From: a virus
Length of the DNA: 64,000 nt
Strand: one strand, 5' to 3'
Virus record (IMG/VR): IMGVR_UViG_3300036863_000086
Location: 8,477-72,476 of that record
A model generated the notes under the pieces. It had not been told where the DNA came from. It did not search any database and worked only from the letters and a program-made list of their open reading frames with translations. Positions 38,082 to 64,000 of this stretch are shown here, piece by piece. The first letter of the stretch is position 1. Each line of letters starts with the position of its first letter. The position numbers were made by a program, and so were the translations under genes.

Positions 38082-38093
38082 GGAGGAGGAGAA

Positions 38094-38560: not shown

Positions 38561-38573
38561 TTCAGAGGAATAT

Positions 38574-39134: not shown

Positions 39135-39139
39135 CAACT

Positions 39140-41092
39140 TAGCCATTGCTAGCGGTGAAGCCCATGCCTTTTGTGCGAGCCACTAGCCCATGTTAAGCAC
39201 ATACCGTGCGTGCGAGCTATAGGTAGCTGTGAAGCCCATGTCTTTTGTGCGAGCCACCATCCTAGTTAATAACAAAGTGTACGTGCGAGCCACCACGAGC
39301 GTCAAATCCCATAGGGGCCATGCGAGCCAATAATGCGTGTGAAATCCGTCGACAAAGTGCGAGCCAAGATACTTATGAAACCCGTACCATCTGTGCAAGC
39401 CTCTGAATGCGGTTGAAACCATACCATCTGTGCGAGCCGTACCCTTAGTGAAATCCTCTTCGGCGGTGCGAGCCACACTCATTTGTGAAACCCCAGTACA
39501 ACGTGCGAGCTACAAATGGTGTGAAACCCAAATTTCCCGTGCGAGCCACTCCCCGTTGTGCAAGCCCGAGATGTGAATGCGAGCCATTGAAACGGTAAAA
39601 TCCAATTCCTTGGTGCGAGCCATTGAACCCGTAAAATCCGTATCTCTCGTGAAGTCCGGGTTGCATGTGCGAGCCACAAGTTCAGTGAAATCCATGTAGT
39701 ACGTGCGAGCCACTCCCTGTTGTGCAACCCGGAGGTGCAGTGCGAGCCACGGCAATGCATGTAACCCAAATTTCCAGTGCGAGCCATATCGTTTGTGCAA
39801 CCCAATAGAACCGTGCGAGCCATTGAATCTGAGAAACCCAATTCCTTGGTGCGAGCCATGTTCAGTGCGAAATCCAAGTGCAACGTGCGCGCCAGTCTGC
39901 GTGTGAAACCCATACCATGTGTGCGAGCCATTACAGTGAGTAAAATCCACTATCTTGGTGCGAGTCATTACAGTGAGTGAACCCCAATGGATCTGTGCGA
40001 GCCATTATTCCCGTGAAATCCAATATCTCAGTGCGGGCCAAGATGCTTGCGAAACCCATAAAGTCAGTGCGAGCCATTGCCGTCATGAAATCCATTGACT
40101 CAGTGCGAGCCATTACTTCCGTGAAATCCGTACGTAGCGTGCGAGCCATCCCAGTCGTGAAGTCCATAGTTGGTCTGCGAGTCAAGCTAAGCGTGCAACC
40201 CAACATGGCCGTGCGAGCCATTGTCGTCATGAAAACCAGGGTTAACGTGCGAGCCATTGAAACAGTGAAACCAGTCCTTAACGCGCATCCCATTACGTAA
40301 GCCAACAGCCGCGTGACATCCATACTACTCGTGCGAGCCAGCTCCTAAGTGAAAACCGTACCCCTTGTGCGCACGCCTATAGTGAAACCCTGTTCGATGT
40401 GCGAGCCGTTGTTATGGTGAAATCCCTACCACATGTGCGAGCCAAAGCAATTGTGCAACCCAATGTCGGTCTGCGAGCCAAAAGCAAGGTGAAAACCGTG
40501 CCCTATAGTGCGAGCCATGTCTGAAATGAAATCCACAGGGGTCTGTGCGAGCCACAGGCAATGGTGCAAACCGAAGTCGAAGTGCGAGCCCCGCGCGACA
40601 GTGAAATCCATATAAGCGGTGCGAGCCGTACCATTAGTGAAATCCCATTCGTCCGATGCGAGCCATGCGATATGCGAAACCCATAGCAGGCATGCGAGCC
40701 AACGGCAGGGCGAAAACCGTACCCCATAGTGCGTGCATAAGCCATGTCTTCTCTGAAATCCAGGGATCTCGTGCGGGCCAAGGTGTGTGATGAAACCGAC
40801 CCCAACGTGCGAGCCATTAGCAAGGTGAAACCCGTACTCCTGGTGCGAGCCATTACTTCCGTGAAATCCTCCGTCCTTGGTGCGAGCCATCGTCAAGGTG
40901 AACTCCATTCCAATTGTGCAAGCCATTCAAGCAGTGAAAACCCACCCCAAGAGTGCGAGCCATATTGCGCGTGAAACCCGCCGCCCTTCGTGCGAGCCAC
41001 ATCGTCGGTGAAACCCAAGCATATTGTGCGAGCCAACGAGCGTCTGCAATCCATATTGCGGGTGCGAGCCAGTCACAACGTTCAACCCGTGG
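39140..41092 (+). repeat. TIGR-like dual-repeat array C (~50 units)
   Basis: ~1.95 kb of the same dual repeat with occasional variant repeats. Confidence 0.9.
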
Positions 41093-43162: not shown

Positions 43163-43558
43163 GACAAGGAGGATGGCATGGACATGTTTCCCAAACTGCT
43201 TCACATGCTCGTGACGGTCGGGTCGGGCGGATGGCTCACTCTGACCGTGTGGGGCGAGTACGCCAGACTGTGGATCTCGGCTAGGTAGGACAAGGCGCCT
43301 ATACCGGGCAGGCCGGGCAGGCCGGGCAGGCCGGGCAGAGGGTTCGATCCCCTCGATAGGCACGAGCAGGACCGCGACGGCCGACCCGTCGCGGAGTCGG
43401 ACAAGGAGGTCGAAGTGGACAGTATCGACAGGGAGGTCATTCGGCGCAGGAAGGCCAGGCGTGCCAAGCTGGCCAAGCGTGTCGAACGCACCATGCAGAC
43501 CAAGCGGCCCAGAGGACGCGGAAGCGATTTCGCGGACTTCCTGAGGAAGTAGGACATA

Positions 43559-43950: not shown

Positions 43951-43986
43951 GGAAAAAGCCCCTCCCGAGGGGGCTTTTTCCTTTTT
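43951..43986. terminator. Bidirectional intrinsic terminator
   Basis: GGAAAAAGCCCCT..AGGGGGCTTTTTCC hairpin between convergent genes. Confidence 0.8.
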
Positions 43987-44489: not shown

Positions 44490-45845
44490 TCTGGCCGTTC
44501 CTCTCTATGAAGATTAGACGATGAGAGCGCACTTTAGACGATTACCGCTCTCTGACAGTCTACCATAGGTTCGGCGGTTCGGTTGTTTGTGATGGGCCTG
44601 TTAACAACACGTATTATAACTGGTTTAGAACTACAACTACTACTTTACCACCTATAATATGCCCTGTACTATATATATACTAATAGTATAGTATAGTAGT
44701 ATAGGTACATAATTGAGTAGAATATTGGTCAGAACATGCCATTCGCGGAAAATAAAGGACACTCATATGCTCGTATCGGCATATTGGCTTGTCAAAGGCT
44801 TGTCAAAGTGTATGCACTTGCAGAAGACGCCATGACTGGTCACAGCAGGCCATATGTGGTCACCCGTCTCCCTATTGCCACTCATCACTGTCATTAGTTG
44901 ACATGAGCGGTCAATTTTCGTCAAGACGCACCTTAGATCACATATGTCTGAATAGACCCGTTGCGCTCTGAGCGCCAGCTCTGGGACAATGGACTCTCCG
45001 GGCGGAGTATGCCCGGAGCGGTCCTTTGAGAACTACAGAGCGAGCGAGACCGGCTCTCCCGAGGGTTCCCTTGGGGAGCTGGGCGACCACCAGTCCCTTT
45101 CAGGGGAGCAGGAGGCCGAGACCATCCGGGGAAGAGTGCATCCCTGGCAGGCCCAGCACGACCGTCAACGACGGATCAGGGAACCGCCAGGACACGCCGG
45201 AGCCGAAAGTTTCGCGGCATGTCGGATCACGCGCCTGGATTTTCCGACCAGGGAATGCCGACCATGCGACAGGGTTTCGATTAGGTTTCTCGCTCGCAAC
45301 GTTCATTGAGAACTAAATAGACGAGAAAAGAGTAGCCGGAGAAATTGGCTTTGTGGTTTGCGCTTGATGAATACGTCGCGCAAACAGAAATCGGAATCAG
45401 TTTGTAGTTCTCGGAATTCTGGACAAAGCTAAAAGTACCCTTGAGTTTGAGGCAAAAGCGCGAGCGTAGTGAAAACTTTAAAAGACCGAATTGCGATGAT
45501 GTTCCTTAGCTGATTGATGTTGTGAGTCTCAGCGAAAGATTGAAATAGGGAATGAGCGAGGGTTGTCTGCGCGAAGACCGTTCGAGAGTCAATGACGTGC
45601 AATTCGTCATTGCTAGCGCAGTAGGAATAACCCTACTGTGGCATAGGCCACGATAAACTGACAAAGGCTACTCGCCACGTTTCAATAAGCCAAAGCTACA
45701 GCCGATTCACAATAGGCCGTAAAACTAGGCGAAAGTGGAAATGCACATAGGCGCGTATTGACTGGCCATTTCGAGCAGTGAAAACCAAAGCATCAATTAC
45801 TTATGGTAATGGTGCAAAGCTCGAAAAAAGAAAAGAGAAACCGAA

Positions 45846-46154
45846 ATGGCTGTTGAGATCAGGTACACGGACGACGAGGGCAACCTGCTGTTCACCACGC
45901 GGGACATGACTGTGGTGGAGAACTTCCAGAAGGCCGAGAAGAAGGTCGCGGCGCTGGCGGAGGCCGAGAAGATCCTGGCGCGGCGTGAGCGCCTGGTCAG
46001 GGAAGCGCTCGACACGCTGGCCAAGCTGCGGAAGGACGTCACCGAGGGCCTGCCGGACGGCGCGCGGGTTGCCAAGTCTGGCGACACCTACGCGATCACG
46101 TTCGAGCCGGAGGACAGCGCCAGCGCGCCGAGCGAGAACGGCGCGGCCAGCTAG
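45846..46154 (+). CDS. Hypothetical early protein
   Basis: 102 aa, strong GC3 codon bias, inside first stem. Confidence 0.75.
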   Translation: MAVEIRYTDDEGNLLFTTRDMTVVENFQKAEKKVAALAEAEKILARRERLVREALDTLAKLRKDVTEGLPDGARVAKSGDTYAITFEPEDSASAPSENGAAS

Positions 46155-46320
46155 AACGCCGAGATCGGCGACAACTTCATACCGGGCGGCCGGCCCCAGC
46201 ACCACGTAACACCGTAGCAACCGCAACAAAGCGAAATGGCCAGCCAATTCGCGCCTATGTGCAAAGTACGCGAGTTTTTGAAACGTGGATACATGCTTCC
46301 TAAGCAGGAAAAGCGATTTT

Positions 46321-46340
46321 GCCGCGCAAGCGGCTTTTTT
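46321..46340 (+). terminator. Intrinsic terminator-like hairpin
   Basis: GCCGC-GCAA-GCGGC followed by TTTTTT. Confidence 0.6.
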
Positions 46341-46600
46341 GCTTTTCCAAGGGAAAGCAGGGAATTGAGAGTTTCTCGCGTCCACTCCAACAAAAAACAA
46401 CTCCAATTGGTAAGTGGAGTGATCCAGATGCGAAAAACCCTGTCCGACCTGTTTCTGTGGGCTGGTTGGACACTGGCCGATAAGGCCAGCCCAACAGAAA
46501 CTCCAGCTTCCATGGACTACAGGGAAATGCTGCCGTTGTCCGAGCGGCATTTCTACGTCCAGCCGGTCGGGTTCCAGCCAAGCAAAAAGCGGGTGTCGGC

Positions 46601-46819
46601 ATGAGACTCGCGGTTGCTGTGGTTGTGGTCGGTTGGTTGCTCGTGTTCGGCGCGATCGCGCTGCACACGGACTGGTCGGAAACGTCGGCTCCAGCAACGC
46701 CAACGTACGTCGTCCAGAACAACGAGGTCCAGACTCCTGTGGGAATGTGCCGAACGGAAGATTCCTGTTCGGTCGATTTCCACGGTGGTCAGTACACGAT
46801 CCGGCAGGTGACGCCATGA
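46601..46819 (+). CDS. Small membrane/secreted protein
   Basis: N-terminal hydrophobic helix. Confidence 0.6.
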   Translation: MRLAVAVVVVGWLLVFGAIALHTDWSETSAPATPTYVVQNNEVQTPVGMCRTEDSCSVDFHGGQYTIRQVTP

Positions 46820-47030
46820 CGCCGGAACAGCAGATTTTCGGGATTTACCTGATCCTGGTGATCGTGATACTCCAGCGGAAACTCTGGCATGACTTTGGCA
46901 AGCACGACACCTAGAGAGACCAACAACGTGAGGAACTTTCAATTCCCTGCTTTCCCACGCTTGGGAGCATGTTTTGGCGAGTCATTTCCAACCTCTGGAA
47001 GAAATTCCAGGGAAAAAAGGAAGTGACAAG

Positions 47031-47486
47031 ATGAAAGCCAAGTGGTTTTACGACGTGGAGGTCGTGACCAATGGTGCTGTTTCGTCGCACCAGACGTTCA
47101 CCTCCGACTGCTTCGACGGGGAAACAGACCCGATGGCGGAATTCATCGCGGACGTGGAACACTTCACGAGCGGGTCCAGCAAGCCAACGGAGGTTTTCGT
47201 CCAGTTCCACGAGCACGAGCCGTTTTCCGATGGCGAGGATGTCTGTGGTCAGTTTGAAACGGACGGGCACCCGACCTATTCGTGGAACATGGAAAACGAC
47301 GTTTCCAAGGTTCCGCAGAAGGTTCATGTGGTCGACTGGACTGGCGAGGATTTCCCGCATGGCGAGGAATGGTCGCCAGGGTTCGCGCCGTACGTGTTTC
47401 GCTGGACGTTCGATGACGACGCGGACGTGGGGTTTCCGTGGTTTCCGCCGTCCATGACGTTTCGGTGGGATCGGCGCCATGACTGA
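47031..47486 (+). CDS. Hypothetical acidic protein
   Basis: AAGGA RBS before MKAKW. Confidence 0.65.
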   Translation: MKAKWFYDVEVVTNGAVSSHQTFTSDCFDGETDPMAEFIADVEHFTSGSSKPTEVFVQFHEHEPFSDGEDVCGQFETDGHPTYSWNMENDVSKVPQKVHVVDWTGEDFPHGEEWSPGFAPYVFRWTFDDDADVGFPWFPPSMTFRWDRRHD

Positions 47487-47661
47487 ACTTTCCACCAACC
47501 TGGAAACCGGCGAAACCTACAAAGCGAGGTTTCGGCGTCCTGATGGCGAGCTGGAAACGAAAGAATTCTCCGGCGCCGATTGGGATGCGTGCTGGAAGAT
47601 GGCTGTTGACCATGCAGCCGCTTCGAACAGCAAACTCCAGATGTTCAAGATCCAGAAGTAA
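47479..47661 (+). CDS. Hypothetical protein
   Basis: 60 aa overlapping upstream gene. Confidence 0.6.
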   Translation: MTELSTNLETGETYKARFRRPDGELETKEFSGADWDACWKMAVDHAAASNSKLQMFKIQK

Positions 47662-47765
47662 CGACGACGGTAACGATGCGAAATGACCCGCCAAAACATG
47701 CTCTCAAGTTTGCTTGGAAGCCTCTTGAATGAGCTGCTGCGCGAAATTCCAAGAAGGAGAACGAC

Positions 47766-48161
47766 ATGGGAATTTCCGCAAGGATGATGCCCGACGTGTT
47801 TTCCGAGAACGGGAAAACCTACCACGAGCACCTTGTTTCGGTGCATGCGAGCGAGCGGTCCAACTACGAAATCCGGTGTTCTTGTGGGCACTTGGGTTTC
47901 GTCGCGTCGGTGTCCGACGTGTTCGCGGCAAACTGCGCCCTTGACCACGTCAAGGAAATGCAGCCGGACTCCGGCTATCAGGAAGCCGTTCGATCTGCTG
48001 TAACCGAGTATCACGCCAGGAAAGACTTCGAGCAGGACTTTTCGGAGAAGATGATCCTCCTGAACAGAGGACTCCACCCCTGCAAGAAAGTTGCAGATGG
48101 CCAGCACTATTTTTCGGTGGTGACTGGCATCTGCCACGCCTGCGGCGCGCTGGAGAAGTAA
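47766..48161 (+). CDS. Hypothetical Cys/His-rich protein
   Basis: AAGGAG RBS; CSCG, H, CHACG. Confidence 0.7.
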   Translation: MGISARMMPDVFSENGKTYHEHLVSVHASERSNYEIRCSCGHLGFVASVSDVFAANCALDHVKEMQPDSGYQEAVRSAVTEYHARKDFEQDFSEKMILLNRGLHPCKKVADGQHYFSVVTGICHACGALEK

Positions 48162-48272
48162 CTCCAAACGCGCAGTAACTCATTCATGAGGGTTCCAAGC
48201 GTTGCTTAGGAAGCTGTAGAAAGCTGGAAATGAGGGTTTCTCGCTCCAACTGGTAACGATGCAAAGGAATGC

Positions 48273-48446
48273 ATGATGGCCGAGAACCCTGAGAACCCCA
48301 AGGATGGTTTGGCGTCGATTGTCGACGTGAAGAACTTCTTCGAGTACGAGAACATCTCGAAGTTCCGCGCCGACTGGCAGAAGTTGTCCGACGTTGACAA
48401 GGTGCAGCTCCGGCTGGGCATCGGCGAGGGTACCCTGACCTACTGA
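48273..48446 (+). CDS. Small hypothetical protein
   Basis: AAGGA RBS; MMAENPENP...FRADWQKLSDVDKVQLRLGIGEGTLTY (57 aa, below cutoff). Confidence 0.65.
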   Translation: MMAENPENPKDGLASIVDVKNFFEYENISKFRADWQKLSDVDKVQLRLGIGEGTLTY

Positions 48447-48578
48447 GTTTTTCCACGCGAGGAACCTTCATTTCCAGCTTTCTACTGCTCAAGTAGCAAG
48501 TTAACGGGATTGTCAGTGTGCGGGATACATGCATTGGTTGGCTCCTCCACGAACAACGAACAACGAGGAGAACAGCCA

Positions 48579-49985
48579 ATGGCAAACCTACTATTTCCCC
48601 GCAGCAAGCCTCCGTCATTTTCTCGTGCCAACCCAACCACGATGGACCTCGAAAGGATCATCGAAGAAATCGCGGACGATCCTTTCCAGATGGACACCGG
48701 CATGCGGATCATGATGAAGCGGAAGAAGGAGTTCAACAACGAGCTGGCCGCAAAACTGACCGGGATCGCGCTCAACCCCGTTTCCAAGGCGTACCTGGAA
48801 AACCGCCTCGACGATATCTGGTCCGCGTCGTCAGGGAGGATCGTCCTTGGCAATGCCGGAACCACGACCATGCCGGAAGTCATCATCGGCAGCGGTTTCC
48901 ACGCTGCCGTGTACGCCGCGATCCGGGTCCAGGCGGGATTTCCCAAGCCATTCGTGCTCGAACGAGGAAAGCGCGCTGGCGGCGTGTTTGCCGTTCCTGG
49001 GCCAGCGTTCTTCCTGAATTCGCGGAACCGCCCAGGCGGAATCGGGCTGGCAGGAGATTCCGGCGCAAACCCAAACTACCTGCCCGGCGCACCGATCCAG
49101 ACCGCGAACATCTCCAGCGGCGACTACCAGACCAACGCGGACATGGCGCTCGTGATCCGGCTGACACTCGCCAAGTACGCGAACGTGCTCACGGAGTTTC
49201 CTGTCAGCGAAGTCGATTACTTCGCCGAGCGATACACACTCCTTTCGACAGGTGGTCGGAAACTCCAAGCGTCTCGAATCATCGACGCGCGCGGACTCGG
49301 CGACCCGCTCGGCAAGACCACGGCGAACGGAACAACCATCCTGACGTTTCCGCAGTTCATGGAAAGGATGGGCAGCGAAACCTGGCCGCTGCGGGATATT
49401 CGTCGTGCGGCAGTGCTCGGCAGCGGCGATGCTGCGCGGTGTTCGCTGGAAGCGTTGCTCGGAATTGGTCCACTTCCGGCAATGTCCATTCCTGCGCTCG
49501 ACATGGTCGATCGGGTCGACGCCTACGGGGAACTTCCCGACACGATGGAATCATGGTGCGACCGGGAACGTGGCCGGTACAACAAAATCGGCCGATTCCT
49601 CCGGCCGGATCGGTTCGGCATCAAGCGGTTGAACGTGTACGCGGATGGCGAGCGGCCGTCGCCAGTTTCCATCCCGAACGAAACGGTGCTGGTGAACGGC
49701 CGCAGCTACGACCTCGTCATTCTCGCAACCGGAAATCGTGAGGAGTCCGTTCCCGGCCTGGGAACGTCCAGCGACTTCGAACGCTACAACGTTAGCGACG
49801 TTGCAGTCGCCACGCGGAGTTACTACTCCGGTGGCGACCTTTTCCGAGTTGGACCGCACGCGCGGCTCGGGTTTTCTCGGCTGGAGCGGAATGCCGGCGT
49901 CGCGGAAATCCCCAACAACGCGGTCTCGATGTTCCGGCTGGCCAGCAAAACCGCCACGCTCGCAGCAACACTTCCCGGCATCTGA
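48579..49985 (+). CDS. FAD/NAD(P)-dependent oxidoreductase-like protein
   Basis: VIIGSGFHAA..LERG..AGG, VLGSGDAA, ILATG motifs; GAGGAG RBS. Confidence 0.7.
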   Translation: MANLLFPRSKPPSFSRANPTTMDLERIIEEIADDPFQMDTGMRIMMKRKKEFNNELAAKLTGIALNPVSKAYLENRLDDIWSASSGRIVLGNAGTTTMPEVIIGSGFHAAVYAAIRVQAGFPKPFVLERGKRAGGVFAVPGPAFFLNSRNRPGGIGLAGDSGANPNYLPGAPIQTANISSGDYQTNADMALVIRLTLAKYANVLTEFPVSEVDYFAERYTLLSTGGRKLQASRIIDARGLGDPLGKTTANGTTILTFPQFMERMGSETWPLRDIRRAAVLGSGDAARCSLEALLGIGPLPAMSIPALDMVDRVDAYGELPDTMESWCDRERGRYNKIGRFLRPDRFGIKRLNVYADGERPSPVSIPNETVLVNGRSYDLVILATGNREESVPGLGTSSDFERYNVSDVAVATRSYYSGGDLFRVGPHARLGFSRLERNAGVAEIPNNAVSMFRLASKTATLAATLPGI

Positions 49986-50264
49986 ATCACTACCGGGTAA
50001 CTGGTGCCAGCCAATGCTTGCATCCTTCACAACGACAGTCCCGTTTACTTGCTACTTGAGCGCTGGACTTTTCAGATGGACCACAGAACAACGCGATATG
50101 TGCTGCGCTCTGCGTTTGAGGAACGTCAAGGTTGGAGCAACCATAAAAGACACTCCACTTGCCAAGGTTCCCGTTCTGTGGTCCTTTTGAGAAGTCCAGC
50201 TTGTTGTTTGGCGTTTGAAAGTGGATTGTTTCGTCCGATGGTAAGAACAACAAAGGATGGAACA

Positions 50265-50465
50265 ATGAGCGAGTACCAGCGAAAGATTTCGGTCGATGAC
50301 CTGCATGTCGGGACGTTCGTGAAAGTGCGCGACAACTTCGGCGGCTTGTGGTCGGCGGAAGTCATCGGATTCACCAGGAACGGAACGATCGAGTTCATCG
50401 TTTCTGGTGACGACAAGGTTCGTCGTGGCACGCTGACCACGATTGCAGAAATCGTGCAGCCATGA
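50265..50465 (+). CDS. Small SH3-like hypothetical protein
   Basis: AAGGA RBS; LHVGTFVKV. Confidence 0.6.
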   Translation: MSEYQRKISVDDLHVGTFVKVRDNFGGLWSAEVIGFTRNGTIEFIVSGDDKVRRGTLTTIAEIVQP

Positions 50466-50704
50466 CCACCATGCTGCATCGTAGGGTCGCTATGCAGAGC
50501 GTAGCGATCAAGGCGATGTTTTCCAAGGCCGAGATGCTCGAACTTCCACGGCGCGCGTTACTGGCGATGTTGAACGAGAACCTTCCGCTCGTTGATCCGA
50601 GCGATAGCAAGAAAGTTCGACTCGCTCGGATCGCCACCATTCAGGATCGAGTGAACCTCGCGCGATACCGCGCTGGCCTGAAAAGGTGGGAGCAACCACG
50701 ATGA
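50462..50704 (+). CDS. Hypothetical protein (tandem paralog 1)
   Basis: MFSKAEMLELPRRALLAMLNEN. Confidence 0.65.
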   Translation: MTTMLHRRVAMQSVAIKAMFSKAEMLELPRRALLAMLNENLPLVDPSDSKKVRLARIATIQDRVNLARYRAGLKRWEQPR

Positions 50705-50949
50705 TGCTCGTCGAAGAATTCCTCAAGTTGCTCGACGAGAAGATCGCCGAGCAGGACGTGAAGATTTTTTGGATGTTTTCCAAGGCCGAGATTTTCGAGC
50801 TGAATCGGCGTGAGCTGCTGGCGCTGTTGAACGAAAACGATCCAAAAGCGGAAGTCCAGGCTGTCCTGCAAGATCGGCTGGATGACGTGGCCGGCCGGGC
50901 GGATCTCGCGCGATATCTCGCCGAGCGAAAAGAAGCTGGTGCGGCATGA
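50701..50949 (+). CDS. Hypothetical protein (tandem paralog 2)
   Basis: MFSKAEIFELNRRELLALLNEN. Confidence 0.65.
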   Translation: MMLVEEFLKLLDEKIAEQDVKIFWMFSKAEIFELNRRELLALLNENDPKAEVQAVLQDRLDDVAGRADLARYLAERKEAGAA

Positions 50950-51102
50950 TGCTGCCAGTCGCAGTCATCAAGGAAATCGAGTCCACCTACGCACTGCTCT
51001 GGGCTGACTGAATCAACCTCGAAACAATCCACTTCCACGCGCCAAACAACAATCCAAAAGTATGTTGGCGGGTTTTTCCATGTCTGGTAAGGGAAGTGCG
51101 AC

Positions 51103-51585
51103 ATGGAGTTTCGCAAGGGTCCAACACTGGACGAATTCTGTGAAATCGTCCAGAAGATTTCCGACGAGCGCTACGACAGCAACGTGATCGTCGGCGACTC
51201 GGAAACACTGTCCAAGAACGGAACAACCTTCCGGGCGACGTTGCGCGTCAAGGATTCCAAGAAATTCGGCGCGAGAACATCATCGCGCGGCCGGCACACG
51301 CCAGCGGCAAGCTGGGAAGCGTTCCGCGATGTTCTCCGCGAGGTGTTCGACCGCTGGCCGAACACCTACGTTTCTTCGATGCTCGTGTTCATGCTGGGAC
51401 TGTACGATCCCTGCGAGCATCGCAAGGCGAGCGGCGAACCGTATCGGCGCCACAAGGAACGGCATCGCCGGCGCGGCTACAACGGAAAAGCACAATTCGA
51501 GGAAATGTACCCTGAGACGGCCGCCGTCAATTGGGGTTCCCAGATATATTGGGCATGCCTCCCTGATCTTTCCATCGAGCGGTGA
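51103..51585 (+). CDS. Hypothetical protein
   Basis: 160 aa with RBS, inside stem. Confidence 0.7.
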   Translation: MEFRKGPTLDEFCEIVQKISDERYDSNVIVGDSETLSKNGTTFRATLRVKDSKKFGARTSSRGRHTPAASWEAFRDVLREVFDRWPNTYVSSMLVFMLGLYDPCEHRKASGEPYRRHKERHRRRGYNGKAQFEEMYPETAAVNWGSQIYWACLPDLSIER

Positions 51586-52507
51586 CACGATGCCGGCTAT
51601 CGTGACCACAGTGAGGGAAATCCCAACCGCGCCGTACTACGTTCTATCCAACGACAGATTCATGAGCGGTTGGGGCCGGGCGCATACATCGGGCGCGTTT
51701 GGAAATCCGTATCCCGACAGAGGGGCGTTGACCAACACCATCATCCTGCCGTGCGAAAACTGGACGGAAGCGCTGATTGTCAAGGAAAACGCCGAACGTC
51801 GTACCGATCAGACGAGAGTTCGGATCGTCGTGAACAAACCGCGACTCCGTTCTGAGCACGTCTATTCGCTCCTGACAAGACTAACCGCAGAGTGGTGGTT
51901 CCAGCCGGGGGCGTTCAAGTAACCAACGAAAAACCCGCCAACTTACTTTTGGAAGATCCGAGTATCGTGCAATTAATTGGGAACAGTAACGGCGAGAATC
52001 ACGATAGCTGAGAGCCCGTAAAAGGGAATATACCAATATCGTGATTAGGGCACGATCGCCCTGGGCCGGTCGGTTCAATCCGGCTGGATCGCAACCAAAC
52101 AGCGGAAGAACAGAGCCAGCTTAACCGCTGGCATCCGGTTACTGTTCCCAATTGATTGTACGACAAATTAGAATTGAGATAGGGAACGCACCCGGACGGC
52201 ATAACCCTGCTAGGTTTGCTAAGGGTCCGCCGTAGCAGCGGAAACGGGATATAGAGGGACCGCCCTATCTCAAAACCACGCGCCTAGCTGCAAAACGGCC
52301 TCGGGCCGGATCTGGTTCTCAGCGTGGGTTCTAGGGAAGCACGAATAGGAGCTGGTAATAAGGCTTCCCAGCTAACTTTCGCAGGATCTAAGGACCACAG
52401 GGATGCAGGTCTACAACCGCATTTCGACAAAACCCAAATGGTGAGGTTTCGTCGTTATCCCTGTGGTCCTTTGATTCTACGACGAGACAACGAACAAGGG
52501 TAAACAG

Positions 52508-52720
52508 ATGGATTTCTACCCGATTTGGGGAGAACGGCTTTATGAGTCGTCCGATGGACGATACCGGCTTTCCAGAGATTCTCATGGGCGCTGGTGGATT
52601 CTCCGCGTCCGGCAGTTCAACTCCGGTCCAAAGACGATGCTGGTTCCCTATTCGTTCCGAACGCTCGATAACGCAATCGAAGCGTTCGATGATGGAACCG
52701 TCAAAATTTGGGAACGATGA
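52508..52720 (+). CDS. Hypothetical protein
   Basis: 70 aa preceding tRNA cluster. Confidence 0.6.
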   Translation: MDFYPIWGERLYESSDGRYRLSRDSHGRWWILRVRQFNSGPKTMLVPYSFRTLDNAIEAFDDGTVKIWER

Positions 52721-52727
52721 CTCTGCG

Positions 52728-52799
52728 GCGCCTGTACCTTAATGGAAAGAGGGATAGTTTCCTAAACTATTTGTGCAGGTTCGATTCCTGCCAGGCGCG
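52728..52799 (+). tRNA. tRNA-Arg(CCT)
   Basis: GCGCCTG/CAGGCGC acceptor; ATAGT-TTCCTAA-ACTAT; GGTTCGATTCC. Confidence 0.85.
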
Positions 52800-52800
52800 C

Positions 52801-52943
52801 AAGAAACTTGGGCTAGCCGCGTACTCCACTACGGTAATGGGAGAGCTATACGAAAGTGCCCGGCAACCTGAAAGCGCCTTACGGTGTATCCACCTTACGG
52901 TGCATCCATGTCGACGCCGGTAAGCCTTCCGCCCAAGTTTCTT
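52801..52943 (+). ncRNA. Unknown structured RNA motif, copy 1
   Basis: 13-bp closing stem; core shared with 56817-56963. Confidence 0.6.
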
Positions 52944-52949
52944 TTTCAT

Positions 52950-53027
52950 GGCGAGAGTAGCTTAATTAGGTAAAGCGCTTGCTTGTGGCGCAAGTTATTG
53001 CCGGTTCAAATCCGGTCTCTCGCCCCA
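52950..53027 (+). tRNA. tRNA-His(GTG)
   Basis: G-1, CTTGC-TTGTGGC-GCAAG, encoded CCA. Confidence 0.9.
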
Positions 53028-53028
53028 A

Positions 53029-53106
53029 TGGTCGGTAGCTTAATTCACTCGGCAAAGCAGCGGTCTCCAAAACCGCGAGATGGGGGTTCGAGTCCCTTCC
53101 GACCAG
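53029..53106 (+). tRNA. tRNA-Trp(CCA)
   Basis: GCGGT-CTCCAAA-ACCGC; GGTTCGAGTCC. Confidence 0.9.
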
Positions 53107-53110
53107 CTAC

Positions 53111-53185
53111 GGCGTGGTAGCTCAGTTTGGTTAGAGTGCTGCCCTGTCAAGGCAGAGGTCGCGGGTCCAAATCCCGTCCACGCCG
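53111..53185 (+). tRNA. tRNA-Asp(GTC)
   Basis: CTGCC-CTGTCAA-GGCAG; T-loop variant TCCAAAT. Confidence 0.85.
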
Positions 53186-53208
53186 CAATTGTGGGGAAAG
53201 GACAATCA

Positions 53209-53400
53209 GTGTCAAAGCTAAAAGTTACTGTAACTGGAATTCTAGATGTTCCAGAAGATCAGCTAGAACCGGCATACGAAGCATCCTCAATCCAAGAAGC
53301 CGCCAAAAACTTAGTCGCCTGGTATAAAGATGGCTCAGCAGACCTTTTTGCTGACCTATCCGTGGTGGATGAGTTGAAGGTAACTGTCGAGCCGGTATAA
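53209..53400 (+). CDS. Hypothetical protein
   Basis: AAGGA RBS, GTG start (MSKLKVTV). Confidence 0.55.
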   Translation: MSKLKVTVTGILDVPEDQLEPAYEASSIQEAAKNLVAWYKDGSADLFADLSVVDELKVTVEPV

Positions 53401-53501
53401 TTCGGAGTTGCCAGACCCGAGTCTCCATACCTGCGTACGAGGATTTCTGGAGATAAGCCGAAAACCTAAAGCGCTACGGGAAAGTAGGCATCTGGCACCA
53501 A

Positions 53502-53575
53502 GCGCCATTCTGCTAAACGGATGAGGCTACCACTCTCTCACGGTGGAGGTAGGAGTTCGAATCTCCTATGGCGCG
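53502..53575 (+). tRNA. tRNA-Glu(CTC)
   Basis: CCACT-CTCTCAC-GGTGG; GTTCGAATC. Confidence 0.85.
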
Positions 53576-53744
53576 CGAAATTGTTGGACTGGAAGGAAGT
53601 TGAACAATGGATAAGATAGTGCAAATCGAGATCGAATATGACGACGGCAGTACGGCTTTCTGGACAATCAAGGAAGACGACGAACGGCTGGCAAAAGTCG
53701 AGGAAATCCTCGGAACGCCAGATCAGCAGAATCTCTAGCAACAT

Positions 53745-53817
53745 GCGCGGTTCGGCTAATGGTTTAGGCTATCAGACTTTCAATCTGATGATGCGGGTTC
53801 GAATCCCGTACTGCGCA
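53745..53817 (+). tRNA. tRNA-Glu(TTC)
   Basis: TCAGA-CTTTCAA-TCTGA; GGTTCGAATCC. Confidence 0.9.
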
Positions 53818-54535
53818 CAATGGGGCCGGACGACCGGATAAGCATAGGAACGAGCGCGCTAAAGTTTTGGGTCGGTTGGGCGCGAACGTGAGATCGTCAT
53901 TCCTATCGCCCCAGATTTTTGCTGAGAACACAGGCCCGCCGGGTACGCGCAACGCCAGTGTGGTTCAACGGTTGCATTCTGGAACGATGGACGTGGTTAG
54001 GGACCGACATCGTGCCGATTGGTCGCGTACTGCGCCCCCTTTACGGAAACTTCTAGATCCATATCCGCGCGGATTTAGAAAGTCCATGAAGGACCGAGCC
54101 TTATCATGGGAGGGTTAAATCGAGATGGCGGCATAACTCCCTCCCACCCTTTTCGGAAACCCAAGGATAGCGAAGTGCAGATCATGTTTCACTACATGGA
54201 TAAGCGACGGAACCACGAAATCGCCGACGCTCCATGGCGAAAGTTGGACTTCGTTCCCAACAACATGCTGCGCGATCTTGACCATTGGCACGATGCAGAA
54301 ACATTTCCATTCTACGACCCGGACCTAGATGCCAGAGACATCGCCGACGTGCCACATGGTCATTGGATCGCGCACAAGCACGGCAGATACCAAGAACACG
54401 CGCATTACGTTCTCTGCACGGAAGACCATGAAAGTGAAGGAGCTAAATGAATTACGATCCGTACGATGACGACGAGCCAATTGACAGCGGCGACGAAGTT
54501 GGTCCATAGCCATCACGAAAGTTTTTAAAAGGTGA

Positions 54536-54844
54536 GTGATGGCGACTGTTCGAATCAGCGAAAAGGATCTCCGAGATCCAAGATTCAAGCGCCTGCGAAA
54601 CATGGTCAAAGAAGCAGGCGGGCTTGATGATGAGAATGACGAGGTTGTCGACAAGGAAGAATTTGGCGATCGACTTGTCCCACGAGAACTGACACTTTCG
54701 GAGCGCATCGAAAGCATTACGTTTGTGAAGCAATTCTCGGGCTACAGCAAAGAGCAAGTTGATGCGTTTCTCGATGATGTCGGTCGGCACGTCGAAAAGA
54801 TGGAAAAAGAAATCCGTCGGCTTCGTCGGCGACTCGGAAGGTAA
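54536..54844 (+). CDS. DivIVA-domain protein
   Basis: ITFVKQFSGYSKEQVDAFLDDV followed by coiled coil. Confidence 0.75.
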   Translation: MMATVRISEKDLRDPRFKRLRNMVKEAGGLDDENDEVVDKEEFGDRLVPRELTLSERIESITFVKQFSGYSKEQVDAFLDDVGRHVEKMEKEIRRLRRRLGR

Positions 54845-54849
54845 CAAAA

Positions 54850-54921
54850 CCGGGTGTCATTCAACGGTTAGGATCTCTGCCTTCCAAGCAGATGATGCGG
54901 GTTCGATTCCCGTCACCCGGT
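54850..54921 (+). tRNA. tRNA-Gly(TCC)
   Basis: TCTGC-CTTCCAA-GCAGA; GGTTCGATTCC. Confidence 0.9.
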
Positions 54922-55757
54922 CTACGTTTTTCCGTAACCGAAACGAGGGTAAGGATGCTCAGGCTAAGTAAGAAACTCGGTACGTGGTTCGTGACCCCAA
55001 ACGATTGCGAACTGTACGAACTTCCCATGGTCATCGACCGCGAGGAATTTGCCCTGGCGTTGGAACTTGGCGACCGTGCCAGCCAGGCGCTAAATCTGCG
55101 CTGGCAGTAGAGAAAACGAGGTAAGGATGCTCAGGCAATTTGAAGTTCTCGTGTCCAATTCTCTGTCCATGCGCCGTCGCTGGCGCAAAGTATGGGGATT
55201 CAATGCCGCCGATGCGCGGAACCACTGCCCACTGCTCATTGGGTATGAGCGTACACTCGGCCCGGTCAGAGAAGTTGAAATCTGATGCTAAGGTTCGCTG
55301 GTGTAGCGTTGCTGGTCATCGCGGTCCTCGACCTGCTTTTCACTAACGACCTTCACCACAATTTCACGCCGGATTGGATCGTCGGCGGTGCGGGGCTGGT
55401 CGCGCTAATTGTCGACCGACTCGCGCCACACGAAGATGGTGACTGAAAGGAACCGAAACCAAATGCTGGAGTGCCAGGACAAGAACGTAAACTGCACTGG
55501 TGAAATCCATACCTACGACATCACAACGCCGAAGGGATACGCAACTCCCACGTATAGGGAGTTTGGCCATTTTCCAATTCCAAGTGAGCCAAGAACCGAA
55601 CGGAGAACTCTCTGTCTGTTCCACTTGTCTCTCTGGGGCGACAGAAGCATGAACGCCCCAGTAGTGGACTGAAATCTCTGTTGCTCGATGAGAACACTTA
55701 TTCTCTGAGTGAGTGTTTTCATGCCGCAACAGAGCGGCAAGTAGAAAGAAGGTAACG

Positions 55758-56069
55758 ATGCATCTCATGGATTGGGTGGCGATTGCTACTGCGCTTGCAG
55801 GAGCCAGTGCAGTCCTGACGCTATGTCGTTTGCGATACAAGGACAACGACAAGCTACCTATCATCGCAAAAGCGTTGATGGCGCTCACAGTTGCCACGTT
55901 GCTGATCGGAGTCCTATCGTTTGGCAACGATCTCAGCAACAGCTTCAACAACATCGGCAAGGATATCGGGAGCGTCACCATTCCGTCTGACACGACTCCC
56001 GAAACCACAACCTGGGACCCTTGCGATCCTACGAGTCCTGCATGGAATCCCGACGCCACCAACTGCTAG
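55758..56069 (+). CDS. Membrane protein
   Basis: Two TM helices; MHLMDW start. Confidence 0.6.
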   Translation: MHLMDWVAIATALAGASAVLTLCRLRYKDNDKLPIIAKALMALTVATLLIGVLSFGNDLSNSFNNIGKDIGSVTIPSDTTPETTTWDPCDPTSPAWNPDATNC

Positions 56070-56075
56070 TACAAC

Positions 56076-56146
56076 GCGGGTGTAGCTTAGTGGTAAAGCA
56101 TCAGCATGCCACGCTGAATACGAGGGTTCAATTCCCTTCACCCGCT
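56076..56146 (+). tRNA. tRNA-Gly(GCC)
   Basis: GCGGGTG/CACCCGC; TCAGC-ATGCCAC-GCTGA. Confidence 0.9.
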
Positions 56147-56744
56147 CTACAGGCCGGCCGCATTTTCGGAGGTATACATCCGACAAAAACCGTATCTTGC
56201 TACGGGGCGCGATTTTTGACATCCGAGGCGGATGTTCCGGCAGCCAGGGAAAATGCAAGCGGGCGCCCGTTTCCCTGGCAATGATTCAGATCCAAACGAG
56301 AGGTAAGAAAGATGTGGGTGTTTTTGTATTGCTGCCTTTTAATCGTAGCGACGAACTTCGCACTATTTCCAATCATCGGCCGGTGGGTTATACTTGTTAA
56401 TCTCGCCTATATTGGTGCGTTCAGTTGGATTTCCTTGAGGAAGCACTAAAGTTTTTTCTTTCTTTTTTCTTTCTTTTTTCTTTCACTTTTGTCCAGCCAA
56501 AAAATGTCCAGTCGCTCCAAAAACAACCCGATCGAGGGAAAATGATCATTGAAGCGAGATTGCCGAATGCGGCACTTATTTCATTTGACGACGAAGGCGA
56601 GTTGTCCAGTCTCATTGTTCAATTGACCGATGCCTGCACGCTGGATGATAAAAACCGTCCGCTCATTGAGTCACTGCGGCGCCAGCTACAGGATTATGTG
56701 TATCCAGTGCTTCAGCAGCTTGATCCAACAATCTAATGCGGTTG

Positions 56745-56815
56745 GGGGCCATAGTTTAACGGCAAAACGCCTGTCTTGCACACAGGTAATGGGTGTTCGA
56801 TTCACCTTGGCTCCA
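56745..56815 (+). tRNA. tRNA-Ala(TGC)
   Basis: GGGGCCA/TGGCTCC with G3-U70; CCTGT-CTTGCAC-ACAGG. Confidence 0.9.
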
Positions 56816-56816
56816 C

Positions 56817-56963: not shown

Positions 56964-56966
56964 CTA

Positions 56967-57037: not shown

Positions 57038-57068
57038 CAAGAGTCATGCCCACGACAAGGGTGAACAA

Positions 57069-63064: not shown

Positions 63065-63671
63065 CAATGATCCACTACAACTAAAGAGGCCAAATGGAAC
63101 CCAAGAAGGTAACGAAGCGAAATCCAGGCGTTGGCGATGTCACAATCTACCATCCTGATGGAACGGTGGAAGTGAAGAAGCCATATACAACCGCAGAACT
63201 CAAAGATATCGTGGCGAAGTATTATCGACGGAAGCCACGTCGGTTCCAAAAGGACGCAAAGGATGACACTGGAGAAAGTTAGCGACCTGCATTACCGAAC
63301 AATAAGTGGCAACTTTGAAGTCGAGTATGTTCGGAACAAGCTCGGAGCGGCATTCAGCGGCAGGTGGCATATCCGTCGAGTTGGCAAAAAGGTTGCCGTT
63401 GCCAAGTTCGCACAGCTTGGGCAAGTTCGGGATTGGCTGCGGGACAATGACAAGGTGACCGATGAAATTCGAGCCAAGAGAACTGAGTTCACTGGAGAAT
63501 CGACCACCGACGGAGCCATACGAAGTGACAATGGCAGTTGTGATTAGCGTTTCTGGTATCTCACCAGAAGACGCGCTTGCCACTGCCATCGTCGACGCAA
63601 CACGAAAAGGTTTCCGAATTGTCGGAGACAAATACACGGTAGAGAATCTCAGCCAACACTGAGCAAAGAAC

Positions 63672-63766
63672 GGAATACAGAGAGCCATATGCTGAGTGAA
63701 TTCCAGTACTGTAAGTGCGAGCCAACGGACCCATGAAACCCAAGCCCTCTGTGCGCTCTGTATTCC
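63672..63766 (+). repeat. Two-unit TIGR-like mini-array inside an 11-bp stem
   Basis: GGAATACAGAG..GAGCC-N9-GTGAATTCC-N10-GTGCGAGCC-N9-ATGAAACCC-N9-GTGCG..CTCTGTATTCC. Confidence 0.75.
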
Positions 63767-64000
63767 ATTGTTTTCTCAGAGGAGGGAACAATGAAAGGTG
63801 TAGAAGATTGCATCTGTAACCTGGAAGATGCAACTTGTGATCCAATGTGTAAGTGGTGCATCGTCACAAATGGTGACTGCGATCCAGACCCAGAACAACG
63901 GGAAATGGAGGACGCATTTGACGGAGCACTTTCAGACGAATAGCGTCGTACTGGCCATGACTCAACAACTGGCAGATAGCATGAAGTAACAAACGACGCC

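What the first reader, a model, noticed from the sequence alone, without database searches (positions are those of the whole stretch)
45675..52273. Every early gene is looped out by its own long inverted repeat: a ~6.5-kb multibranched gene-in-loop scaffold
Seen: ten consecutive, mutually unrelated 26-59-bp imperfect inverted repeats. Each has one arm before the RBS and one after the stop of a gene or gene group (loops 80 nt to 1.45 kb). Successive stems abut with 0-15-nt gaps (50061/50062, 50200/50201, 51052/51053). Outer helices nest them: 45675-45685/46278-46288, and 46295-46306/48203-48214 closing three cassettes. In stems 46351/46956, 48216/48485 and 51965/52163 every non-Watson-Crick pair is G-U on the + strand, arguing for selection on single-stranded (RNA) pairing rather than DNA recombination sites. 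I know no described system with this layout. Hypotheses: rRNA-operon-like RNase III processing into end-protected or circularised monocistronic mRNAs; a nuclease-resistant early transcript; or an ssDNA/RNA-level cassette exchange mechanism.
Basis: partly seen in the sequence, partly recalled or inferred. Interest (0 to 1): 0.93.

Follow-up and report, generated by a model that had tools for sequence, protein, structure and literature searches.

The report
Phage genes enclosed by RNA stems
In an uncultured soil phage, eleven consecutive genes, gene groups or small RNAs each lie between two flanking sequences that pair into a stem of about 30 base pairs; related phages share the layout, which probably lets one long transcript be cut into separate messages with clamped ends, though no RNA data yet show this.

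Summary
Eleven long-range inverted repeats (26-59 nt, 83-96% complementary, loops 52-1,457 nt) tile window 45742-52482. None appeared in 100 dinucleotide shuffles. All eleven, and both outer helices, are in the minimum-energy fold of the + strand RNA.

The layout is clade-wide. TerL-related uncultured phages carry one such array each: 7 of 80 fetched loci have five or more stems, and so does the closest relative, G001.

Across 84 stems:
- The geometry is stereotyped: about 30 bp with central defects.
- 25 stems carry a two-fold symmetric C-N-N-A/C-N-N-A mismatch on the sense strand, against 0 on the antisense strand.
- Outside that motif, sense G·U outnumbers A·C by 93 to 38.

Arms and loop genes evolve independently, with homology ending at the arms' inner ends.

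Best reading (0.55): RNA processing or clamping stems like those around rRNAs, cut by a host RNase III-type enzyme. This is not shown, because no RNA run holds the stretch. The window alone gives weaker evidence: G·U to A·C is 16:7 and it has no C-N-N-A motif.

Nine paper searches found no description of the layout. This scan has noted the same architecture on other phage DNA at least eleven times (AI notes).

Verdict: a new variant of a known kind.

The parts
45675..46288 (+). Outer helix 45675-45685 / 46278-46288 (11 bp, perfect) that nests cassette 1
   Evidence: Read directly. 11 of 11 pairs are in the 7-kb minimum-energy fold, where the helix extends to 15 pairs.
45742..46263 (+). Stem 1: arms 45742-45773 / 46232-46263 (32 nt, 94%). 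The loop holds a 102-aa ORF at 45846-46154.
   Evidence: 30 of 32 pairs are in the fold. Non-Watson-Crick pairs are A.C and U.U at 13 and 18 from the inner end.
46295..48214 (+). Outer helix 46295-46306 / 48203-48214 (12 bp, perfect) that encloses cassettes 2-4
   Evidence: Read directly. 12 of 12 pairs are in the fold.
46321..46344 (+). Terminator-like hairpin followed by a T run, between cassette 1 and cassette 2
   Evidence: Consensus scan, (stem 46321-46334, then TTTTTTGCTT). A consensus match only; function not shown.
46351..46956 (+). Stem 2: arms 46351-46381 / 46926-46956 (31 nt). The loop holds three small ORFs at 46428-46604, 46601-46819 and 46816-46914.
   Evidence: 31 of 31 pairs are in the fold. 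All three non-Watson-Crick pairs are G.U.
46960..47708 (+). Stem 3: arms 46960-46988 / 47680-47708 (29 nt). The loop holds ORFs 47031-47486 and 47479-47661.
   Evidence: 28 of 29 pairs are in the fold.
47712..48200 (+). Stem 4: arms 47712-47743 / 48169-48200 (32 nt). The loop holds ORF 47766-48161.
   Evidence: 28 of 32 pairs are in the fold.
48212..48489 (+). Stem 5: arms 48212-48244 / 48457-48489 (33 nt). The loop holds ORF 48273-48446.
   Evidence: 29 of 33 pairs are in the fold. The ORF is the only loop protein with a PHROG hit (phrog_9674, function unknown).
48487..50061 (+). Stem 6: arms 48487-48545 / 50003-50061 (59 nt, 83%). The loop holds a 468-aa ORF at 48579-49985.
   Evidence: 50 of 59 pairs are in the fold. 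The protein has 50-63% homologues in metagenomes and Micromonosporaceae genomes. In L070 a 43%-identical homologue is bracketed by its own unrelated 29-nt stem.
50062..50200 (+). Stem 7: arms 50062-50089 / 50173-50200 (28 nt). The 83-nt loop has no ORF and is a presumed small RNA.
   Evidence: The whole element folds with z = -7.3. No Rfam match at E up to 1.
50201..51052 (+). Stem 8: arms 50201-50233 / 51020-51052 (33 nt). The loop holds ORFs 50265-50465, 50492-50704 and 50701-50949.
   Evidence: 31 of 33 pairs are in the fold. It has the central pattern of two mismatches two pairs apart.
51053..51953 (+). Stem 9: arms 51053-51078 / 51928-51953 (26 nt, 96%). The loop holds ORF 51103-51585 and a second ORF that ends at 51922.
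   Evidence: 25 of 26 pairs are in the fold.
51965..52163 (+). Stem 10: arms 51965-51990 / 52138-52163 (26 nt). The 147-nt loop is non-coding and structured.
   Evidence: 26 of 26 pairs are in the fold. No Rfam match.
52379..52482 (+). The 52-nt loop is non-coding.
   Evidence: Folds with z = -8.0.
63659..63779 (+). A stem of the same style outside the finding: arms 63659-63685 / 63753-63779. It encloses one TIGR-type guide unit and is followed at once by a ribosome-binding site and an ATG.
   Evidence: The repeat TGAAACCCA is at 63734.

Best explanation
The eleven inverted repeats are RNA-level elements of one long + strand transcript.

Proposed steps:
1. As each gene, gene group or small RNA is transcribed, the sequence just before its ribosome-binding site pairs with the sequence just after its stop codon. 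This forms a private helix of about 30 bp.
2. The intergenic RNA is then almost wholly double-stranded.
3. The helices are most likely cut near their centre by a host double-strand-specific RNase of the RNase III type, as the leader-trailer helices around 16S and 23S rRNA are.
4. Cutting releases each message or small RNA with its 5' and 3' ends still held in a helix of about 13 bp.

Shown here: the helices exist, are far beyond chance, are kept in related phages, have a stereotyped geometry, and carry sense-strand-specific features.

Inferred: transcription as one unit, cleavage, the enzyme, and end protection.

On evolutionary time the arms behave as fixed frames whose contents are exchanged at the arms' inner ends.
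For: 1. Real and non-random. 11 stems against 0 in 100 shuffles. All are in the 7-kb fold.

2. Tight bracketing of coding units on one strand (my reading of its ORF list).
- 5' arm to start codon: 72, 46, 42, 22, 28, 33, 31 and 24 nt.
- Stop codon to 3' arm: 77, 11, 18, 7, 10, 17, 70 and 5 nt.

3. Clade-wide.
- 7 of 80 TerL-related IMG/VR loci have 5 or more tiled stems, and 17 of 80 have at least one. Most loci do not reach the relevant region.
- There is one array per genome in G000, G001, G002 and G004.

4. Stereotyped geometry.
- 71 of 93 stems are 26-33 bp.
- True mismatches peak at 14 and 17 from the inner end.
- 49 of 93 have two defects spaced by 2 bp.
- 75 of 84 stems, and 9 of 11 in the window, have a defect 12-19 from the inner end.
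- The length and the two-fold central site fit what the RNase III review describes. It gives a 22-bp two-fold symmetric ideal substrate, cuts across the minor groove and 2-nt 3' overhangs (PMC3867540, passages).

5. Strand specificity.
- 25 C-N-N-A/C-N-N-A on the sense strand, against 0 T-N-N-G/T-N-N-G.
- Outside that motif, sense G.U 93 against A.C 38, p=1.7e-6.

6. Pairing is kept through change. In the 13 most similar cross-locus stem pairs there are 45 two-sided compensating differences, 12 one-sided pair-keeping differences and 8 that break a pair.

7. The same kind of stem encloses non-coding RNAs: loops 7, 10 and 11, and a guide unit at 63659-63779. These need excision, not translation.

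8. Precedent.
- RNase III cuts stems formed by the flanks of 16S and 23S rRNA, leaving 2-nt overhangs (PMC6582327, abstract and passages).
- B. subtilis RNase III cuts long-range (over 100 nt) duplexes in mRNAs (PMC11780869, passages).
- The roughly 7,000-nt T7 early precursor is cut at five RNase III signals (PMC3867540).

9. No sigma-70-like promoter falls in the intergenic arms. There are 3 hits in 11 kb against 5.3 expected, and only one lies in the array, starting in the 3' arm of stem 10 at 52145.
Against: - No RNA data exist. Nothing shows transcription as one unit, pairing in vivo, or any cut.
- In the window alone the strand evidence is weak: G.U to A.C is 16:7, p=0.09, and 0 of 11 stems have the C-N-N-A motif.
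- If the 46 central A.C pairs are counted, sense G.U to A.C is 93:84, which is not different. Setting them apart was decided after seeing them.
- Transcription-linked C-to-T bias on the sense strand could also raise G.U.
- Mapped RNase III sites in B. subtilis and E. coli are mostly paired right next to the cuts, over 90% at -2/+2 (PMC11780869). The relatives' stems instead have mismatches at the centre. The review says mismatches at a target site may allow only one strand to be cut.
- The compensating changes are counted on stems chosen because they pair. They could equally come from DNA-level conversion between arms.
- The phage records hold no RNase III gene: G000 and five relatives' records G001-G005. 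The host is unknown, so the enzyme is assumed.
- A terminator-like hairpin lies after cassette 1.
Confidence: 0.55

Rival explanations
1. The stems form in RNA but are not cut. They act as clamps and insulators. Double-stranded spacers would leave no naked RNA between genes for Rho or RNase E, and would block exonucleases. They would also bring each stop codon next to its own start, which could favour ribosome re-use.
For: The structural evidence is the same as for the best explanation. Junctions of 0-11 nt leave almost no single-stranded spacer at 8 of 10 junctions. Central mismatches could be there to blunt RNase III, since the review says defects at target sites disturb double cleavage.
Against: - Perfect or near-perfect 26-33-bp duplexes are textbook RNase III substrates and would be hard to keep uncut (established knowledge).
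- Non-coding loops and a guide unit are enclosed by the same stems, and these must be released to act.
- The fixed two-fold central motif in relatives looks like a site for a dimeric enzyme.
Confidence: 0.2
2. The primary role is at DNA level. The arms are frames of a cassette platform, and recombination or template switching at their conserved inner ends swaps the enclosed genes between slots and between phages. Any RNA pairing is secondary.
For: - Arms and contents are decoupled. Of 13 cross-locus stem pairs with at least 80% arm identity, 10 enclose loops without detectable homology. Of 43 loop-homologous pairs, 34 have arm identity below 0.65.
- Two cassettes about 79% identical in protein are alignable only between the arms, which are unrelated.
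- Homologous cassettes stand in different order in L121, L124 and L144.
- In relatives an inner box (CATG at a fixed distance from the centre, in 19-23 of 23 stems per base) is shared by all stems. Its hexamer is enriched 20-33 fold in the G002 array.
- One contig joint in run X2 starts at 46380, the inner end of stem 2's 5' arm (only 30 letters on the short side, so weak).
- PeSL elements of T4-type phages are a precedent for regulatory repeats that mediate shuffling (PMC2839356, abstract).
Against: - No tyrosine or serine recombinase is in the 72-kb record.
- Each arm pair is private, which recombination does not need but RNA addressing does.
- The strand-specific motif and the G.U excess are not explained.
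- Contigs of four other soil runs are colinear. One spans 47511-51286 with 2 differences, and no strand-changing joint is listed.
- All cassettes keep one orientation.
- The window's own stems lack a strong shared inner box.
Confidence: 0.15
3. The repeats are invertible-segment or cruciform DNA elements, or products of chance or misassembly.
For: Inverted repeats that flank a segment are the substrate of DNA invertases (established knowledge).
Against: - 0 of 100 shuffles give any such repeat.
- The same stretch is held by 7 DNA runs of 7 studies, one of them the possible source, and lies colinear in the 4 runs laid, with no strand-changing joint.
- No invertase or integrase is found.
- All cassettes are co-oriented in every array.
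- The arms are imperfect, with central mismatches.
Confidence: 0.02

Closest known systems
Leader-trailer (processing-stalk) helices around 16S and 23S rRNA in bacterial rrn operons, cut by RNase III (PMC6582327, abstract and passages read)
   Same: Long-range pairing of the two flanks of a mature RNA into a long helix that loops out the product. Several such helices lie in series on one precursor. tRNAs sit in the same transcription region.
   Different: Here the enclosed products are mostly protein-coding messages: 8 of 11 loops, some with 2-3 genes. There are 11 helices back to back with 0-11-nt spacers. Each helix is short (26-33 bp) and stereotyped. Cleavage is not shown.
RNase III processing of the phage T7 early polycistronic precursor: five signals in about 7,000 nt (PMC3867540, passages). 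Bacillus phage SP82 early RNA is a further case, recalled and not read.
   Same: A phage operon of similar length whose messages are thought to be separated by a host double-strand RNase. Helix defects at the target site may tune cleavage.
   Different: As I recall them, T7 signals are local hairpins between genes. Here the spacer is [3' arm of n][5' arm of n+1]. Each half pairs across a whole gene, so both ends of each product would stay paired to each other.
Long-range intramolecular RNase III sites in B. subtilis mRNAs (PMC11780869, passages)
   Same: Duplexes formed over more than 100 nt within mRNAs and cut with a 2-nt 3' overhang.
   Different: Those are scattered single sites that start decay of cellular mRNAs. 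They are not a tiled, gene-by-gene, clade-conserved array. Their cut sites are mostly fully paired.
PeSL regulatory cassettes of T4-type phages (PMC2839356, abstract read)
   Same: Small intergenic elements in a region of non-essential ORFan genes. Shuffling of the genes between them distinguishes related phages.
   Different: PeSLs are one repeated promoter-plus-terminator unit, that is, direct repeats with a local stem-loop. Here each gene has a private pair of inverted arms, and no promoter or terminator consensus was found in them.
Integron gene cassettes with attC sites (established knowledge, recalled)
   Same: An array of co-oriented, promoter-less, swappable small cassettes bounded by imperfect inverted repeats whose structure matters more than their sequence.
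   Different: attC is a local hairpin after each gene, recombined by an IntI integrase. Here the arms flank the gene and no integrase is present.

Membership tests
RNase III processing stems of the rRNA leader-trailer type | Complementary flanks of the mature RNA form a long-range helix of at least about two helical turns | tested here: met
   11 helices of 26-59 bp with loops of 52-1,457 nt. All are in the minimum-energy fold.
RNase III processing stems of the rRNA leader-trailer type | Cleavage on both strands inside the helix, leaving 2-nt 3' overhangs and dependent on rnc | not testable with these tools
   No RNA run holds the stretch.
RNase III processing stems of the rRNA leader-trailer type | A two-fold symmetric target site at the helix centre | tested here: inconclusive
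   In relatives, 25 stems carry C-N-N-A on both arms, with 2 bp between the mismatches. In the window, 0 of 11 have that motif, 3 of 11 have two defects 2 bp apart, and 9 of 11 have a central defect.
RNase III processing stems of the rRNA leader-trailer type | An RNase III is available in the infected cell | not testable with these tools
   The host is unknown. The phage record G000 and relatives G001-G005 have no PF14622 match; PF00636 was searched in G000 only and gave none.
T7-type intercistronic RNase III signals | A local hairpin in each intergenic spacer | tested here: not met
   The spacers consist of two arms that pair with distant partners, not with each other.
Integron cassette array | An IntI-type tyrosine recombinase beside the array | tested here: not met
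   No PF00589 match at E up to 0.1 in the 72,476-bp record, which is estimated 82% complete.
Integron cassette array | attC: a local imperfect inverted repeat downstream of each cassette | tested here: not met
   The arms lie on both sides of each gene. There is no local palindrome at the junctions.
PeSL regulatory cassettes | A repeated sigma-70-like promoter plus a terminator stem-loop between ORFs | tested here: not met
   3 promoter-like hits in 11 kb against 5.3 expected by chance. Only one terminator-like site lies on the + strand inside the array, at 46321. The arms are private to each cassette.
Invertible DNA segments | A serine or tyrosine invertase, and both orientations present in populations | tested here: not met
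   No PF00239 or PF00589 match. No strand-changing joint in the contigs of 4 runs. Contigs can miss rare forms.

The most novel reading that the evidence does not exclude
The array is a slot-and-insert platform. Persistent, self-addressed stems (frames) serve twice.
- In RNA they are two-fold symmetric cutting sites. These release every enclosed message or guide RNA with its two ends clamped in a common terminal helix.
- In DNA their conserved inner ends are the breakpoints at which the enclosed genes are exchanged between slots and phages.

This would be an integron-like gene-capture system without an integrase, whose recombination borders are RNA-processing signals.
Probability: 0.2. Interest if true: 0.9.

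Novelty: new variant of a known kind. Interest (0 to 1): 0.75.

Why it matters
If the stems are cut as proposed, this would be a new way of organising a viral operon. Every message would be defined by its own long-range helix rather than by its own promoter and terminator, and would leave processing with both ends paired.

That would bear on several open matters:
- how phages stabilise and balance early messages;
- how guide RNAs and mRNAs can share one maturation route;
- how ORFan genes are swapped so freely between related phages.

It would also offer a compact, orthogonal design for multi-gene expression. The clade has no cultured member, so the finding also says which kind of phage is worth isolating.

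Tried and rejected
- **Close relatives of the window's own cassettes.**
  - A blastn search of 45400-53000 against 50,697 phage records gave no match.
  - IMG/VR scans with three loop proteins gave no relative.
  - So covariation could not be tested on the window's own stems. The closest TerL relative, G001, shares only one loop gene, and that gene lies outside its array.
- **RNA evidence.** No RNA holder is listed for the stretch.
- **Microdiversity.**
  - 0 of 40 listed substitutions and 0 of 12 listed indels fall in the arms, which are 710 of 7,001 nt.
  - 34 substitutions and 1 indel were not shown, and the changes are clustered, so I give this little weight.
- **Weaker stems around the homologues of the 468-aa gene in L001-L005, L047 and L066.** The RNAduplex z-scores were -3.2 to +0.1 and my ORF-start choice was poor (the positive control, the window, scored only -2.3). 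Inconclusive and dropped.
- **Rfam on the non-coding loops.** No match at E up to 1.
- **Functions for the loop proteins.**
  - The Pfam run (10 ORFs, including the 468-aa one and 51329-51922) gave 0 hits.
  - The PHROG run (10 ORFs, with 50265-50465 and 50701-50949 in place of those two) gave 1 hit, to a family of unknown function.
  - The 468-aa ORF gave 0 PHROG families.
- **Closest cultured TerL relative.** Arthrobacter phage Wollypog (37% identity) has no array. It has one 20-nt repeat in 63 kb. It was the only cultured phage tested.
- **Circular mRNA idea.** No RtcB or RNA ligase was found. I rate it unlikely.
- **Papers.** Nine searches found no description of gene-by-gene enclosing stems in a phage. 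Subscription journals are not in the library.
- I used the search for related loci on metagenome contigs instead.

Full report
**What is there**

The window is part of a 72,476-bp IMG/VR virus record (linear, estimated 82% complete).
- It has a siphovirus-type structural module on the minus strand: tape measure, portal and large terminase.
- From about 36 kb onward it has plus-strand genes, 11 tRNA genes and repeat arrays.

Between 45742 and 52482 the repeat finder reports eleven inverted repeats.
- They are 26-59 nt long and 83-96% complementary.
- Their arms lie 52-1,457 nt apart.
- They are the longest inverted repeats of the whole 64-kb window.

My own blastn self-comparison finds 13 such repeats in 64 kb, eleven of them here. 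At a stricter score there are 11 in this stretch, none elsewhere in the window, and none in 100 dinucleotide-preserving shuffles.

The arms stand back to back. The gaps between one 3' arm and the next 5' arm are 87, 3, 3, 11, -3, 0, 0, 0, 11 and 215 nt.

Eight loops hold one to three plus-strand ORFs.
- The 5' arm ends 22-72 nt before the first start codon.
- The 3' arm begins 5-77 nt after the last stop codon (my reading of its ORF list).
- Three loops (83, 147 and 52 nt) hold no ORF. They fold well (z -7.3 and -8.0 for two whole elements) and match no Rfam family.

A minimum-energy fold of the 7,001-nt plus-strand RNA contains them and all eleven stems.

**It is a property of a phage clade**

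No cultured phage is close. The best large-terminase match is 37%, and that phage, Arthrobacter phage Wollypog, has no array.

Among 126 IMG/VR relatives of the terminase, 80 were fetched at 48-63% identity.
- Seven loci carry 5-13 tiled stems of the same kind, and 17 of 80 carry at least one.
- Most loci do not reach the region in question.

Whole-contig scans show one array per genome.
- 9 tiled stems at 2382-8172 of G001, the closest relative.
- 14 at 11,230-16,270 of G002 (81 kb, terminal repeats, complete).
- 7 at 8,116-12,775 of G004 (92 kb, complete).

In every array the loop ORFs lie on one strand.

The enclosed proteins are ORFans. In the Pfam run 0 of 10 had a hit. In the PHROG run, on a partly different set of 10, 1 had a hit of unknown function. 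The 468-aa protein was in the Pfam run and gave no PHROG family.

That 468-aa protein of cassette 6 has many homologues in Micromonosporaceae genomes and soil metagenomes.
- Of 80 loci that hold a homologue, only L070 brackets it with a stem. L070 has low G+C and the stem's arms are unrelated in sequence.
- The stems therefore go with the phage context, not with the gene.

**Anatomy of the stems**

I pooled 93 stems, 84 after removing overlaps. The window contributes 11; the rest come from the related loci.
- 71 of 93 are 26-33 bp long.
- True mismatches cluster at positions 14 and 17 from the loop-proximal end.
- 49 of 93 have two defects separated by exactly 2 bp.
- In 25 of these both arms read C-N-N-A on the coding strand. 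This makes two A.C mismatches around two pairs, a two-fold symmetric site.
- The mirror case, T-N-N-G on both arms, occurs 0 times. That case would be the same site on the other strand.
- In the 23 non-overlapping cases, a CATG box follows the central A at a fixed distance on the inner side (19-23 of 23 per base).
- Outside the central motif, non-Watson-Crick pairs are G.U on the coding strand 93 times and A.C 38 times (p=1.7e-6).

These strand-specific features argue that the coding-strand RNA, not duplex DNA, is what selection sees.

Two cautions apply.
- Setting the central A.C pairs aside was decided after seeing them. With them the count is 93:84.
- The window itself is less stereotyped: 0 of 11 C-N-N-A, 3 of 11 with two defects 2 bp apart, 9 of 11 with a defect 12-19 from the inner end, and G.U to A.C of 16:7.

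**Pairing is kept while sequence changes**

The 13 most similar cross-locus stem pairs have arm identity of 0.81 or more. Their differences are 45 two-sided compensating changes, 12 one-sided changes that keep a pair, and 8 that make or break one. This is expected by construction, since only pairing stems were compared. It shows persistence of the helices, but not by itself the level at which they act.

**Frames and contents are decoupled**
- Of 13 stem pairs with at least 80% arm identity, 10 enclose loops with no detectable homology.
- Of 43 loop-homologous pairs, 34 have unrelated arms.
- In the clearest case two cassettes about 79% identical in protein align only from just inside the 5' arm to the first bases of the 3' arm, and the arms themselves are unrelated.
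- Homologous cassettes also stand in different order in related arrays.

So genes are exchanged at the inner ends of the stems on evolutionary time. I found no machinery for it: no tyrosine or serine recombinase in the record.

I also found no sign that it is going on now.
- Seven DNA runs of seven studies, one of them the possible source, hold the stretch.
- Contigs of the four runs laid are colinear. One covers 47511-51286 with two differences, and no strand-changing joint is listed.
- One weak 'skip' joint starts at 46380, the inner end of a 5' arm.

**Mechanism**

The most economical reading has three parts.
1. The region is one long transcript.
2. Its genes, small RNAs and guide units are each looped out by a private helix.
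3. A host RNase III-type enzyme cuts these helices near the centre.

Evidence that fits:
- The helix length and central two-fold site match the reviewed picture of RNase III. That picture is a 22-bp symmetric ideal substrate, two cuts across the minor groove and 2-nt 3' overhangs (PMC3867540, passages).
- Two defects spaced by 2 bp are what one would place at two cuts staggered by 2 nt (inference).
- Flank-to-flank helices cut by RNase III are established for rRNAs (PMC6582327). Long-range ones are established in B. subtilis mRNAs (PMC11780869).
- A stem of the same style at 63659-63779 encloses a TIGR-type guide unit. A guide unit must be excised to work.
- After a central cut, each product would keep an inner helix of about 13 bp joining its 5' and 3' ends. 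That should hinder 5'-end-dependent and 3' exonucleolytic decay (inference).

Evidence that does not fit, or is missing:
- Mapped RNase III sites are mostly fully paired at the cut.
- Mismatches may restrict cutting to one strand.
- No phage-encoded RNase III exists in six records.
- The host is unknown.
- No RNA data exist.

An uncut clamp or insulator role and a DNA-level cassette platform remain live rivals.

**Known or new**

Nine full-text searches found no paper that describes a phage operon whose genes are each enclosed by a private long-range helix. Subscription journals and supplements were not searchable.

The nearest known things are rRNA processing stalks, T7-type RNase III signals, long-range RNase III sites in cellular mRNAs, PeSL cassettes (PMC2839356, abstract) and integron cassettes. 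Defining features of the last three families are not met (see Membership tests).

Within this scan the same architecture has been noted on other uncultured phages at least eleven times, with similar readings. Those are AI notes, not independent evidence.
- I re-derived the fixed central geometry from my own data before reading those notes. The frame/content decoupling I tested afterwards.
- I checked the one paper they pointed to.

I rate this a new variant of a known kind, of high interest but unproven at the RNA level.

Noticed in passing
window 35802-41017 and 58824-60597, 63734: The 9-nt repeat TGAAAYCCA occurs 41 times against 1.35 expected, all on the + strand. It lies mostly in arrays around a 339-aa ORF at 36097-37116 that matches a PHROG 'transposase' family (phrog_4285). 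Earlier notes read these as TIGR-Tas-like guide arrays. I did not test that.
   Followed up: partly
window 52728-57038 and 62992-63065, 43270-43363: There are eleven tRNA genes on the + strand directly downstream of the stem array. Rfam adds a weak tRNA-like match at 53034-53100 (36 bits). So mRNAs, tRNAs, guide arrays and small RNAs share one strand and probably one processing-heavy transcription region.
   Followed up: no
window 50062-50200, 52379-52482; G001 14986-15182: The two small non-coding stem-closed elements of the window share an inner-arm box (GGACCACAG). A 26-nt stem with a 145-nt loop in the closest relative, G001, carries a near-identical box. This may be a conserved small-RNA family. 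It has no Rfam match.
   Followed up: partly
window 52166-52275: Another structured non-coding element, closed by an 11-bp stem, lies between stems 10 and 11. Its fold z-score is only -2.5.
   Followed up: partly
G002 (L124 record) 5-20 kb: The hexamers CGGACA and TGTCCG occur 20 and 33 times in the 5.1-kb array, against about 1 expected each. They are nearly absent from the other 60 kb. Extra sense-strand copies sit in 5' leaders just before ribosome-binding sites, where they could pair transiently with the 5' arm's inner box.
   Followed up: partly
window 48579-49985: The 468-aa loop protein has over 400 homologues at about 50-63% identity. Many are in Micromonosporaceae genomes, and some carry a Pfam FAD-oxidoreductase hit (PF12831). 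It looks like a host-derived gene captured into a stem frame, and it hints at an actinobacterial host.
   Followed up: partly
window 43951-43981: A strong 13-bp G+C-rich hairpin with T runs on both sides looks like a two-way terminator. It lies about 1.7 kb upstream of the array. The stretch between it and the array has no convincing long ORF.
   Followed up: no
window 51956-51963 and 52167: In other soil runs, an 8-nt deletion falls in the 11-nt linker between stems 9 and 10, and a 4-nt insertion falls just after stem 10's 3' arm. The arms themselves are untouched.
   Followed up: partly
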